The position numbers are program-made. 64,000 bases of DNA from Escherichia coli O127:H6 str. E2348/69 (GTDB lineage Bacteria; Pseudomonadota; Gammaproteobacteria; Enterobacterales; Enterobacteriaceae). The stretch lies in assembly GCF_000026545.1 (NCBI RefSeq), contig NC_011601.1. One strand, given 5' to 3'. Below are positions 43,901-46,900 of the stretch, in pieces (position 1 is the first letter of the stretch; every line of letters begins with the position of its first letter).

Positions 43901-46900
43901 GCCGAACGGCTGGGGGAGATACAGAAACGGGTAATCACTGTCTGTGACCGGGAAGCGGATATCTGGCATTACCTGCATTATAAAGTCAGCCACGGGCAGC
44001 GCTTCGTGGTGCGTGCAGCACAGAATCGCCGGCTGGAAGAAGCACCCGGCAAGCTCTTCGAACTGCCGGAAGTCCTGGCAACCGCGGGAAGCCACACGCT
44101 GAATGTGATGCAAAAAGGCGGGCGGGCAGCCCGCCAGGCCCGGATGTTCATCAGTTACAGCGAAGTCAGCATAAAAAATCCCGACAACAGCGGCCAGGCG
44201 CTCCCGCTCACGTATGTCTGTTGCCGGGAGCAGGCAGAGGACGGCGCCTGCTGGCATCTGCTGACGTCAGAAAAAGTGGCGAGTGCCGCCGATGCGCGAC
44301 GTATCGTCAGCCATTACGAGCGACGCTGGCTGATAGAGGAATACCACAAGGCGTGGAAAAGTGGTGGTACATGTGTGGAATCGCTGCGAATGCAGACCCG
44401 GGATAACCTCGAGCGCATGGTGGTTATCAAGGCGTTTATCGCGGTGCGGGTGCTGGGCCTGCGGCAGGGCGGTATCAGTGAAGAAACACAAAATGACAGC
44501 TGTGAGAAAATACTGACGCCGACAGAGTGGAAACTGCTGTGGGTTAAGCTGGAAGGAAAACCGCTTCCGTCACAGATGCCGACACTGAAATGGGCCTGTC
44601 TGAAACTGGCGAAACTGGGGCGATGGCATGACAGCAAACGCACCGGTCGCCCCGGTTGGGTAGTCATGTGGGATGGCTGGTTCAGACTTCAGGATATGGT
44701 TGAGGGTTACCTGGTGATGAAGTCTCTTGATCAGGAGATCTGATCAAGAGACAGCTGTTCTGGCAGGGCTGCGAATTACAGGTCACTCTCGACGCGCAGC
44801 GTATTGCGATTCGAACTTCTGCGCCCGTTTCACTGCGCTTGAACGGTCAGCTTATTTACGTCGCTGAAGAATCTGTTTTCTGTTTGGGGGATTTTATTTT
44901 GCCCTTCAATGGGACCGCTACCACACATCAGGAGGGTGAATGAAACTGCAAGGGGTAATTTTCGATCTGGATGGTGTAATCACCGATACCGCGCATCTGC
45001 ATTTCAAGGCGTGGCAGCAGATTGCCGCTGAAATTGGCATCAGCATTGATGCGCAGTTTAACGAATCCCTAAAAGGGATCAGCCGCGATGAGTCTCTGCG
45101 GCGCATTCTGCAGCACGGGGGCAAAGAGGGCGACTTTAACCCGCAGGAGAGGGCGCAACTGGCGTATCGCAAAAATCTGCTTTACGTCCACTCACTGCGC
45201 GAACTGACGGTTAATGCTGTGCTGCCCGGCATTCGCAATTTGCTGGCTGATCTCCGTGCACAGCAGATCCCTGTAGGGCTGGCTTCTGTCTCCCTGAATG
45301 CGCCGACGATTTTAGCAGCGCTGGAGCTGCGCGAGTTTTTCACCTTCTGCGCGGACGCTTCCCAACTTAAAAACTCGAAACCGGACCCGGAAATCTTTCT
45401 CGCCGCCTGTGCCGGACTGGGCGTGCCGCCGCAGGCATGTATCGGCATTGAAGATGCGCAGGCGGGCATTGACGCCATTAACGCCAGCGGTATGCGCTCG
45501 GTGGGGATCGGCGCGGGCTTAACCGGGGCGCAATTACTGTTGCCCTCAACGGACTCCCTGACCTGGCCGCGGTTATCGGCCTTCTGGCAAAACGTATAGC
45601 AAAGGAATCAACATGGCTCAGCTTTCGTTACAACATATTCAAAAAATCTACGATAACCAGGTGCATGTGGTGAAGGACTTCAACCTGGAAATTGCCGATA
45701 AAGAGTTCATTGTCTTTGTCGGTCCGTCAGGCTGCGGTAAATCGACCACCCTGCGCATGATTGCCGGGCTTGAGGAGATCAGCGGCGGCGATCTGTTGAT
45801 CGACGGCAAACGAATGAATGACGTTCCAGCCAAAGCGCGCAATATTGCGATGGTGTTCCAGAACTACGCGCTGTATCCGCATATGACGGTCTACGACAAC
45901 ATGGCGTTTGGCCTGAAGATGCAAAAAATCGCCAAAGAGGTGATTGATGAGCGGGTGAACTGGGCGGCGCAAATTCTCGGCCTGCGAGAGTACCTGAAAC
46001 GCAAGCCGGGCGCGCTTTCTGGCGGGCAACGCCAGCGTGTGGCGCTCGGGCGGGCGATTGTGCGCGAAGCGGGCGTGTTTTTAATGGATGAACCGCTCTC
46101 TAACCTTGATGCCAAGCTGCGCGTGCAAATGCGCGCAGAGATCAGCAAGCTGCATCAGAAACTGAACACCACCATGATCTACGTGACCCACGATCAGACC
46201 GAAGCGATGACCATGGCGACGCGGATTGTGATTATGAAGGATGGGATTGTTCAGCAAGTAGGTGCGCCGAAAACGGTTTATAACCAACCTGCGAATATGT
46301 TTGTTGCCGGATTTATTGGATCGCCTGCGATGAATTTTATTCGCGGCACGATCGATGGCGATAAATTCGTTACGGAAACGCTTAAATTAACCATACCCGA
46401 AGAGAAATTAGCGATTCTGAAAATACAGGAAAGTTTGTATAAGCCCATCGTGATGGGAATACGCCCGGAAGATATTCATCCGGACGCGCAAGAAGAAAAT
46501 AACATTTCCGCCAAAATTAGCGTGGCAGAATTAACCGGTGCTGAATTTATGCTCTACACCACGGTTGGGGGGCACGAACTGGTGGTCCGTGCTGGTGCGT
46601 TAAATGATTATCATGCAGGAGAAAATATCACTATTCATTTTGATATGACTAAATGTCATTTCTTTGATGCAGAAACGGAAATAGCAATTCGCTAAATACA
46701 GGGGGAAGGCATTCCCCCAGGATAATACAAGGAACAATAATGAAAAATTTATTACCCTGTACCGCACTGGTGATGTGTGCGGGAATGGCCTGCGCACAGG
46801 CCGAGGAAAAGAACGACTGGCACTTTAATATCGGCGCGATGTACGAAATAGAAAACGTCGAGGGTTATGGCGAAGATATGGATGGGCTCGCGGAGCCTTC

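What the first reader, a model, noticed from the sequence alone, without database searches (positions are those of the whole stretch)
45613..46695. ycjV is intact here although annotated as disrupted in K-12
The ORF encodes a full 360-aa MalK-like ATPase with Walker A and a C-terminal regulatory domain, so the ycjNOP transporter plausibly has its cognate ATPase in this strain. Because the IS in ycjT lies upstream, expression is nevertheless in doubt.
Basis: partly seen in the sequence, partly recalled or inferred. Interest (0 to 1): 0.25.

Follow-up and report, generated by a model that had tools for sequence, protein, structure and literature searches.

The report
Intact ycjV sugar-transporter ATPase gene
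The window comes from the EPEC strain E2348/69, and its ycjV gene is a normal full-length ABC-transporter ATPase gene, as in about 85% of complete E. coli genomes. The laboratory strain K-12 is the exception because it lost one G, so the finding is correct but ordinary.

Summary
Window 45613-46695 (+) is a 360-aa ORF with every ABC ATPase motif and a complete MalK-type C-terminal regulatory domain. It aligns end to end with B. subtilis MsmX (E 4e-148).

The window is 100% identical to E. coli E2348/69. K-12 MG1655 does annotate ycjV (b1318) and ymjB (b4524) as pseudogenes. The cause is a single G lost from a G6 run (window 46567-46572).

The intact state is the species norm:
- 4604 of 5426 complete genomes carry G6.
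- 371 carry the K-12-type G5, mostly K-12 laboratory derivatives.
- About 400 lack the whole cluster.

Intact YcjV has already been purified and shown to hydrolyse ATP (PMC7658222), and K-12 ycjV is routinely used as a pseudogene integration site.

The upstream IS is real. It is a 1550-bp ISEc13 (Tn5-like) at 43205-44754 with a 9-bp target duplication, and it truncates ycjT at codon 697 of 755. All other ycj genes are full length.

The insertion is recent. Relatives with nucleotide-identical ycjV exist both with and without it.

A second YcjW operator (44910-44923) lies downstream of the IS, 16 bp before ycjU. Regulated expression of ycjUV-ompG may therefore survive, but this is untested.

Verdict: already known, low interest.

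The parts
45613..46695 (+). ycjV CDS, 360 aa: nucleotide-binding (ATPase) subunit of the YcjNOP sugar ABC importer, with NBD at residues 1-235 and an OB/TOBE regulatory domain at 236-360
   Evidence: RefSeq WP_000057970.1 'ABC transporter ATP-binding protein'.
46567..46572 (+). G6 homopolymer in codons 319-320. K-12 has G5 here, the frameshift that splits ycjV into ycjV'/ymjB.
   Evidence: Allele counts: G6 in 4604 genomes, G5 in 371.
43205..44754 (+). ISEc13 (IS4 family, Tn5/IS50-like), 1550 bp, inserted in ycjT. The transposase ORF is at 43370-44743, co-directional with the operon.
   Evidence: Ends are CTGTCTCTTATACACAAAT and AGATCTGATCAAGAGACAG.
43196..43204 (.). left copy of the 9-bp target-site duplication CTGTTCTGG
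   Evidence: The sequence is single-copy in K-12 ycjT.
44755..44763 (.). right copy of the 9-bp target-site duplication CTGTTCTGG
41117..43243 (+). ycjT 5' part (kojibiose phosphorylase, GH65). 696 native codons run 12 codons into the IS. Most of the GH65 C-terminal domain is lost.
44755..44943 (+). ycjT 3' remnant (last 62 codons plus stop), not in frame with the transposase ORF
44910..44923 (+). second YcjW operator TGGGACCGCTACCA, 16 bp before the ycjU ATG and downstream of the IS
   Evidence: ChIP-seq peak 'between ycjT and ycjU' in K-12, PMC6599011.
44895..44900 (+). -10-like hexamer TATTTT, 9 nt upstream of operator 2, the same spacing as the -10 of PycjM to operator 1. There is no convincing -35. 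Candidate internal promoter (inferred).
   Evidence: Not picked up by the consensus scan.
33385..33436 (+). ycjM promoter region: TTGACA, 17-nt spacer, TAGTCT, then the first YcjW operator at 33423-33436
   Evidence: PMC6599011.
33449..35128 (+). ycjM (glucosylglycerate phosphorylase), full length
35142..38165 (+). ycjN (binding lipoprotein, 35142-36434), ycjO (36455-37336) and ycjP (37323-38165) permeases. All are full length and are the partners of YcjV.
38196..41120 (+). ycjQ, ycjR, ycjS (guloside/glucoside dehydrogenases and epimerase), full length
44940..45599 (+). ycjU/pgmB beta-phosphoglucomutase, full length, with its own AGGAGG ribosome-binding site
46701..46718 (+). 7-bp G+C hairpin between the ycjV stop and ompG, with no U tract on this strand
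   Evidence: -13.6 kcal/mol, z -2.45
46740..47645 (+). ompG porin, full length, last gene of the operon
47696..48694 (-). ycjW LacI-type repressor of the cluster, full length
   Evidence: PMC6599011.

Best explanation
This is the ordinary, ancestral, full-length ycjV gene of E. coli, seen here in EPEC strain E2348/69.

How it works (family knowledge, inferred for this protein): YcjV is the cytoplasmic ATPase of a MalK/UgpC/MsmX-type sugar ABC importer. Two copies sit under the YcjO/YcjP membrane subunits. They close on two ATP molecules through Walker A/B, the Q-loop, LSGGQ and the H-loop, and so drive uptake of the unidentified glycoside delivered by the lipoprotein YcjN. The C-terminal OB/TOBE domains hold the dimer together.

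K-12 is the exception. It lost one G from a G6 run, which removes the last 42 residues of the regulatory domain.

In E2348/69 the only lesion in the cluster is a recent ISEc13 insertion that truncates ycjT, 176 bp upstream of ycjU. My best guess is that this insertion strongly reduces transcription arriving from the ycjM promoter. Some YcjW-controlled or read-through expression of ycjU-ycjV-ompG probably remains. The kojibiose phosphorylase step is lost in either case.
For: Shown:
- The ORF and all motifs are intact, with a full-length match to MsmX and MalK structures.
- The window is 100% identical to E2348/69.
- K-12 annotates the gene as a pseudogene, caused by a 1-bp deletion.
- G6 occurs in 4604 genomes and G5 in 371 of 5426. 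In a 60-row even sample, most G5 rows look like K-12 derivatives by name, size and coordinates.
- dN/dS against frame-restored K-12 is 0.033, with no amino-acid change downstream of the frameshift.
- The exact protein occurs on 86 contigs.
- ycjM, N, O, P, Q, R, S, U and ompG are full length here.
- IS boundaries and the 9-bp duplication are defined. The insertion occurs only in the three E2348/69-lineage complete genomes.
- Relatives with 0 nucleotide differences in ycjV exist both with the IS (5) and with an intact 755-aa ycjT (3).
- Operator 2 lies downstream of the IS.

From the literature:
- Purified E. coli YcjV has ATPase activity (PMC7658222).
- YcjW represses ycjM-V-ompG and gives ChIP peaks at both operators (PMC6599011).
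- K-12 ycjV is used as a pseudogene integration locus (PMC10380740).
Against: - Nothing contradicts intactness.
- Whether YcjV actually energises YcjNOP has never been shown, and the substrate of YcjN is unknown (PMC11543891).
- Expression in E2348/69 was not and cannot be measured here.
- The consensus scan finds no sigma-70 promoter on the + strand between the IS and ycjV.
- The insertion is so recent that an intact sequence says nothing about current selection on the gene.
Confidence: 0.93

Rival explanations
1. ycjV is intact in sequence but transcriptionally silent in E2348/69. The 1.55-kb IS blocks transcription from the ycjM promoter through Rho-dependent polarity over untranslated RNA. 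The gene would then be a pseudogene in waiting.
For: - The IS lies between the only documented promoter (upstream of ycjM) and ycjV.
- 197 nt separate the transposase stop from the ycjU start, and the ycjT remnant is out of frame.
- No consensus promoter was found downstream of the IS.
- Tn5-type insertions are classically polar (general knowledge).
- ycjV is nucleotide-identical to IS-free relatives, so there has been no time for decay to show.
Against: - No terminator-like site on the + strand inside the IS.
- The transposase ORF is co-directional and ends 11 bp from the IS end.
- An exact second YcjW operator with a -10-like hexamer at promoter-like spacing lies downstream of the IS.
- ycjU and ycjV have their own ribosome-binding sites.
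Confidence: 0.35
2. ycjU-ycjV-ompG form a sub-operon with its own YcjW-controlled promoter in the last 180 bp of ycjT. The IS insertion would then leave ATPase and porin expression essentially normal.
For: - The 14-bp operator is identical at 33423 and 44910 (2 matches against 0.30 expected).
- K-12 shows a ChIP peak upstream of ycjU (PMC6599011).
- TATTTT lies 9 nt upstream of operator 2, mirroring TAGTCT at PycjM.
- The 45 bp upstream of operator 2 are nearly invariant in the window, K-12 and Rb-50, while neighbouring codons vary.
Against: - There is no recognisable -35, and the consensus scan reports nothing.
- A second LacI-type operator can serve looping or roadblock functions without a promoter.
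- Strain 2012C-4221 has no exact copy of the operator in the fetched locus.
- The conservation comparison uses only three sequences.
Confidence: 0.25
3. The difference between this window and K-12 is a homopolymer sequencing or assembly artefact in one of the two records.
For: - The difference is a single base in a G run, a classic error site.
- G5 also turns up on two non-K-12 haplotypes (95-3192 and OkiPb01703).
Against: - Three independent E2348/69-lineage complete assemblies and 86 contigs carry the identical intact protein.
- Of the 371 complete genomes that show G5, most rows in a 60-row even sample are K-12 derivatives, i.e. independent K-12 resequencings.
- 4604 genomes show G6.
Confidence: 0.01

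Closest known systems
E. coli YcjV (intact allele WP_000057985.1), studied by Leisico et al. 2020 (PMC7658222)
   Same: Same gene, length (360 aa) and operon position. That protein accumulates when expressed and hydrolyses ATP.
   Different: The E2348/69 allele (WP_000057970.1) carries V268I, T271I and H276Y in a variable stretch of the regulatory domain. I did not retrieve WP_000057985.1 itself for a direct comparison.
K-12 ycjV'/ymjB pseudogene pair (b1318/b4524)
   Same: Orthologous locus with 96.6% nucleotide identity. Once the frame is restored there are only 4 amino-acid differences.
   Different: K-12 has G5 instead of G6, so translation stops after residue 318 plus 2 foreign codons and loses 42 residues of the TOBE domain.
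Bacillus subtilis MsmX (PDB 6yir), the 'multitask' sugar-importer ATPase
   Same: Best solved homologue. It aligns over residues 1-360 at 496 bits, with the same NBD plus regulatory-domain architecture. The paper reports 64% identity for its E. coli YcjV allele.
   Different: - YcjV is encoded within its own transporter operon rather than as an orphan gene.
- It could not replace MsmX in B. subtilis.
- It lacks the four charged residues proposed as the multitask signature: N77, Q104, V110 and G154 in place of D77, R104, E110 and K154.
E. coli MalK and UgpC
   Same: Same subfamily. YcjV passes the NCBIfam UgpC-subfamily model (483.8 bits against a cut-off of 432). It matches MalK structures at E 4.7e-100 with the same domain order.
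   Different: YcjV is below the MalK equivalog cut-off (431 against 568). E. coli has a separate ugpC, which is only 71-75% identical over part of the gene. No EIIAGlc or MalT regulatory interaction is known for YcjV.
IS50 of Tn5 (for the upstream ISEc13)
   Same: The transposase matches the Tn5 transposase at 286 bits over residues 6-453. Both make a 9-bp target duplication. The right end matches the IS50 inside end as I recall it, and the left end resembles the outside end.
   Different: It is a distinct IS (ISEc13), 1550 bp long, with about 27-30 matching places per E2348/69-lineage chromosome. The comparison of the ends rests on my memory of the IS50 sequences, not on a tool result.

Membership tests
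ABC transporter nucleotide-binding protein (PF00005) | Walker A P-loop GxxGxGK[ST] | tested here: met
   GPSGCGKS at residues 37-44. ABC_tran E 1.3e-31.
ABC transporter nucleotide-binding protein (PF00005) | ABC signature LSGGQ, Walker B with catalytic Glu, Q-loop, D-loop and H-loop | tested here: met
   LSGGQ 135-139, VFLMDE 155-160, Q83, SNLD 163-166, H193
MalK/UgpC/MsmX-type sugar-importer ATPase | C-terminal OB/TOBE regulatory domain after the NBD, complete to the C-terminus | tested here: met
   OB_MalK 236-288 and TOBE_2 282-351. Alignment with MsmX runs to residue 360. NCBIfam UgpC subfamily 483.8 bits against a cut-off of 432.
MalK/UgpC/MsmX-type sugar-importer ATPase | encoded with a cognate binding protein and two permeases of a sugar importer | tested here: met
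   ycjN, ycjO and ycjP are full length 7.4-10.5 kb upstream in the same direction.
MalK/UgpC/MsmX-type sugar-importer ATPase | ATP hydrolysis, and energising transport through YcjOP | not testable with these tools
   ATPase activity is reported for another E. coli YcjV allele (PMC7658222). Coupling to YcjNOP has never been shown, and the YcjN ligand is unknown.
MalK proper (NCBIfam NF008233 equivalog) | score at or above the curated equivalog cut-off | tested here: not met
   431.2 bits against a cut-off of 568. It is MalK-like, not MalK.
'Multitask' MsmX/MsmK-type ATPases serving several importers | conserved charged residues D77, R104, E110 and K154, and ability to replace MsmX | tested here: not met
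   The alignment shows N77, Q104, V110 and G154. YcjV failed to complement msmX in B. subtilis (PMC7658222).
Intact (non-pseudogene) ycjV allele | G6 at the K-12 frameshift site and a single uninterrupted 360-codon frame | tested here: met
   RefSeq annotates it as an intact CDS.
IS4 family, IS50-like insertion sequence (ISEc13) | DDE transposase related to Tn5 Tnp, terminal inverted repeats, 9-bp target duplication | tested here: met
   Tnp_DNA_bind, DDE_Tnp_1 and Dimer_Tnp_Tn5 domains. 286 bits to Tn5 Tnp. Both ends share CTGTCTCTT, and the duplication is CTGTTCTGG. RefSeq names it ISEc13.

The most novel reading that the evidence does not exclude
The last three genes, ycjU-ycjV-ompG, may be a separately YcjW-gated module. 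Its operator and weak promoter (window about 44895-44923) would sit inside the 3' end of ycjT. The E2348/69 IS insertion 146 bp upstream of the operator would then spare inducible expression of the ATPase and the porin while removing kojibiose phosphorylase.

This would add to a wider pattern of lesions in the cluster:
- the K-12 frameshift;
- IS1, IS30 and ISVsa5 insertions in other strains;
- whole-cluster loss in about 7% of genomes.

Together these would depict a dispensable glycoside-uptake module that is broken piecemeal at different genes in different lineages.
Probability: 0.25. Interest if true: 0.3.

Novelty: already known. Interest (0 to 1): 0.07.

Why it matters
The scientific weight is small and the value is practical.

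- **K-12 is a poor model for this transporter.** It is the strain used in nearly all functional work on the ycj cluster, yet it lacks a full-length transporter ATPase. The YcjN structure paper searched here never mentions this (no occurrence of 'pseudogene' or 'frameshift'). MG1655 failed to grow on kojibiose (PMC6599011).
- **E2348/69 is not a clean alternative**, because its ycjT is broken.
- **What to use instead.** Anyone trying to identify the YcjNOPV substrate should use a strain with the whole cluster intact, or a K-12 strain with the G restored. About 4900 of the 5426 complete genomes carry most of the cluster, although gene-by-gene intactness was checked only for a few strains.

Tried and rejected
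1. **G run as a phase-variable contingency tract.** G6 plus G5 account for 4975 of the 4980 full-length genes. Other run lengths are therefore at most 5 genomes, and G5 outside K-12 is rare. G5 does occur on at least 3 haplotypes, which fits rare slippage or assembly error rather than programmed switching.

2. **The three E2348/69-specific replacements (V268I, T271I, H276Y) as decay after the IS insertion.** Rejected, because IS-free relatives have a nucleotide-identical ycjV. The residues also lie in a stretch that differs between YcjV and MsmX.

3. **Consensus promoter search between the IS and ycjV.** Nothing was found on the + strand.

4. **Terminator inside the IS.** No + strand candidate was found.

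5. **Literature searches for 'ymjB' and 'ISEc13'.** Nothing relevant was returned.

6. **Cross-species conservation of operator 2.** I did not run the large genome contigs or metagenome scans. A 14-16-nt pattern would give roughly 100-2000 chance hits in 298 Gb, and the cost was not justified for this finding.

7. **Structure prediction.** Skipped, because a full-length match to the solved MsmX structure (496 bits) already settles the fold.
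Full report
**1. 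The observation**

- The + strand carries an ATG-initiated ORF at 45613-46695 encoding 360 aa.
- Pfam finds ABC_tran (21-162, E 1.3e-31), OB_MalK (236-288) and TOBE_2 (282-351).
- All catalytic motifs are present: Walker A GPSGCGKS 37-44, Q83, LSGGQ 135-139, Walker B VFLMDE 155-160, D-loop SNLD, H193.
- Against solved structures, the best match is B. subtilis MsmX (6yir), aligned 1-360 to 1-365 at 496 bits. AlgS, archaeal MalK, SugC and E. coli MalK (338 bits) follow.
- NCBIfam places it in the UgpC subfamily (483.8 bits against a cut-off of 432) but below the MalK equivalog cut-off (431 against 568).
- The description 'MalK-like ATPase with Walker A and a C-terminal regulatory domain' is therefore accurate.

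**2. Provenance and the K-12 comparison**

- The region is 100% identical to the chromosome of EPEC O127:H6 strain E2348/69 in three independent complete assemblies. RefSeq annotates the ORF there as an intact 'ABC transporter ATP-binding protein', WP_000057970.1, between pgmB (ycjU) and ompG.
- In K-12 MG1655 the same interval is annotated as two pseudogenes, ycjV (b1318) and ymjB (b4524).
- Aligning the two gives 36 substitutions and one indel. The G6 run at window 46567-46572 is G5 in K-12, which shifts the frame after residue 318 and stops two codons later.
- With the G restored, K-12 differs from E2348/69 at only four residues and none downstream of the frameshift. dN/dS is 0.033. The K-12 lesion is therefore young, and the gene has been under purifying selection.

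**3. How unusual is an intact ycjV?**

It is not unusual. I used 45/46-nt probes designed so that the wrong allele cannot seed a 28-nt megablast word.

| State | Complete genomes (of 5426) |
|---|---|
| G6 allele | 4604 |
| G5 allele | 371 |
| ycjV full length (at least 80% of the gene in one place) | 4980 |
| ycjV absent (only the ugpC paralogue matches) | about 420 |
| No match to ycjM-ycjT | 393 |

- In an evenly spaced sample of 60 G5 rows, about nine in ten look like K-12 laboratory derivatives by name, size and coordinates.
- In one cluster-free example, ycjM-ompG is replaced by an IS1 between pspE and ycjW.
- G5 also occurs on at least two non-K-12 haplotypes: 95-3192, 15 nt from K-12, and OkiPb01703, 5 nt away. 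RefSeq marks both 'frameshifted'. This fits rare recurrent slippage or homopolymer assembly error.
- G6 and G5 together account for 4975 of 4980 genes, so there is no sign of programmed length variation.

**4. What is already published**

- Leisico et al. 2020 (PMC7658222) expressed an intact E. coli YcjV (WP_000057985.1). They showed that it accumulates and hydrolyses ATP. It cannot replace MsmX in B. subtilis and lacks four charged residues conserved in 'multitask' ATPases. The alignment shows the same for this allele: N77, Q104, V110, G154.
- Metabolic engineers routinely use 'the pseudogene ycjV locus' of K-12 as a neutral integration site, and evolution studies list it as a pseudogene.
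- Both halves of the finding are therefore known.
- By contrast, the YcjN structure paper does not mention the K-12 defect: its main text has no occurrence of 'pseudogene' or 'frameshift'. Luhachack et al. could not grow MG1655 on kojibiose.

**5. The rest of the cluster and the IS**

- Gene by gene, ycjM, N, O, P, Q, R, S, U and ompG have the K-12 length and 96-99% amino-acid identity. ycjW is a 332-aa ORF, as RefSeq annotates it.
- The only lesion is in ycjT. Collinearity with K-12 breaks at 43205 and resumes at 44755.
- The insert is 1550 bp (43205-44754) and is flanked by a 9-bp direct duplication, CTGTTCTGG, of a sequence that is single-copy in K-12.
- It encodes a 457-aa transposase with Tn5-type domains that matches Tn5 transposase at 286 bits. 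RefSeq calls it ISEc13.
- YcjT is cut at codon 697 of 755 and loses most of its GH65 C-terminal domain.
- Among complete genomes, this insertion occurs only in the three E2348/69-lineage records. Each of their chromosomes has 27-30 places matching the IS-containing query.

**6. Age of the insertion**

- An exact-protein look-up found the same YcjV on other assemblies. Five carry the IS at the same site, and three have an intact 755-aa ycjT. All eight have zero nucleotide differences in ycjV.
- It follows that the three allele-specific replacements V268I, T271I and H276Y pre-date the IS. They are absent from the closest complete genomes Rb-50 and 2012C-4221.
- It also follows that the insertion is too recent for the intact state of ycjV to say anything about selection since then.

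**7. Is expression really in doubt?**

This cannot be settled computationally, but the anatomy is informative.

- The published YcjW repressor gives two ChIP peaks in K-12, upstream of ycjM and 'between ycjT and ycjU' (PMC6599011).
- I found the 14-bp palindrome-like site TGGGACCGCTACCA exactly twice in the 64-kb window (0.30 expected by chance). One copy is at 33423, just after a TTGACA-17-TAGTCT promoter. The other is at 44910, 16 bp before the ycjU ATG and 146 bp downstream of the IS duplication.
- A -10-like TATTTT lies 9 nt upstream of operator 2, the same spacing as at PycjM. There is no credible -35, and the consensus scan reports no + strand promoter.
- No terminator-like site lies on the + strand within the IS.
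- The transposase gene is co-directional with the operon.
- ycjU (AGGAGG) and ycjV (AAGGA) have their own ribosome-binding sites.
- Against this, the ycjT remnant is out of frame with the transposase. At least 197 nt, and probably far more, of poorly translated RNA precede ycjU. That favours Rho-dependent polarity, which is general knowledge about Tn5-type insertions.

My estimate is reduced but not abolished expression. Complete silencing (0.35) and a fully autonomous sub-operon (0.25) are the two rivals.

**8. Mechanism**

By homology with MalK and MsmX (family knowledge, not tested here), a YcjV dimer docks on YcjO/YcjP. It binds two ATP molecules at the Walker A/LSGGQ interfaces, and its closure and hydrolysis drive the alternating-access cycle that imports the sugar delivered by lipoprotein YcjN. 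The OB/TOBE domains maintain the dimer. The substrate is unknown, since YcjN bound none of the sugars screened. The K-12 product keeps the whole NBD but lacks the last 42 residues of the regulatory domain, and its activity is untested.

**9. Verdict**

However, the feature is the normal state of a known gene in a sequenced reference strain. Novelty: already known. Interest: low. The residual value is practical: neither K-12 nor E2348/69 has a fully intact ycj pathway.

Noticed in passing
window 22315-23864 (- strand): A second, complete ISEc13 copy (1550 bp) sits next to sapF. It abuts a block absent from my memory of K-12, made of MFS, outer-membrane factor, RND and adaptor genes plus a TetR regulator (about 14804-22296), between sapF and fabI.
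   Followed up: partly
window ~12267-13393 (- strand): RefSeq annotates yciW as frameshifted in E2348/69. An IS200C tnpA lies nearby at about 9622-10080, between rnb and pdeR.
   Followed up: no
window 46567-46572; loci L003, L004, L005: The K-12-type G5 frameshift also occurs in non-K-12 genomes on different haplotypes (95-3192 is 15 nt from K-12, OkiPb01703 is 5 nt away). This suggests recurrent slippage or homopolymer assembly errors. One genome with MG1655-like size and coordinates (BHUCD02, L006) carries G6, but on a ycjV allele that is 22 nt from K-12.
   Followed up: partly
L017 5128-5904; L018 5128-6101: Among close relatives with an identical ycjV, ompG is shortened to 258 aa in one assembly and split into 242 + 84 aa in another. 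Several copies of the ycjT-borne IS have truncated transposase calls (281-414 aa). I did not check whether these are real lesions or draft-assembly errors.
   Followed up: no
E. coli genome hits H193, H216, H243, H249, H264, H265 (L022): Other independent lesions occur in the ycj cluster:
- IS1 in ycjV (CUWW10)
- IS30 and ISVsa5 insertions in the upstream genes
- an insertion in ycjM (strain 361)
- a partial deletion (GD33)
- whole-cluster replacement by IS1 between pspE and ycjW (B-JRPT-4119)

393 of 5426 genomes have no ycjM-ycjT sequence at all.
   Followed up: partly
window 46414, 46424, 46438 (codons 268, 271, 276 of ycjV): Three nonsynonymous changes (V268I, T271I, H276Y) cluster within 25 nt. 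All 12 differences from the nearest complete genome fall between nt 375 and 882 of the gene, which looks like a small recombination patch. They pre-date the IS.
   Followed up: partly
window 46701-46718: A stable G+C hairpin (-13.6 kcal/mol, z -2.45) lies in the 44-bp ycjV-ompG spacer, with no U tract on the + strand. It could be an mRNA processing or stability element, or a terminator for the opposite strand.
   Followed up: partly
window 43205-43223 and 44736-44754: The ISEc13 ends look like a Tn5 outside-end/inside-end pair. The right end (CTGTCTCTTGATCAGATCT, with GATC sites) equals the IS50 inside end as I remember it. The left end (CTGTCTCTTATACACAAAT) resembles the outside or 'mosaic' end. 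This comparison is from memory only.
   Followed up: no
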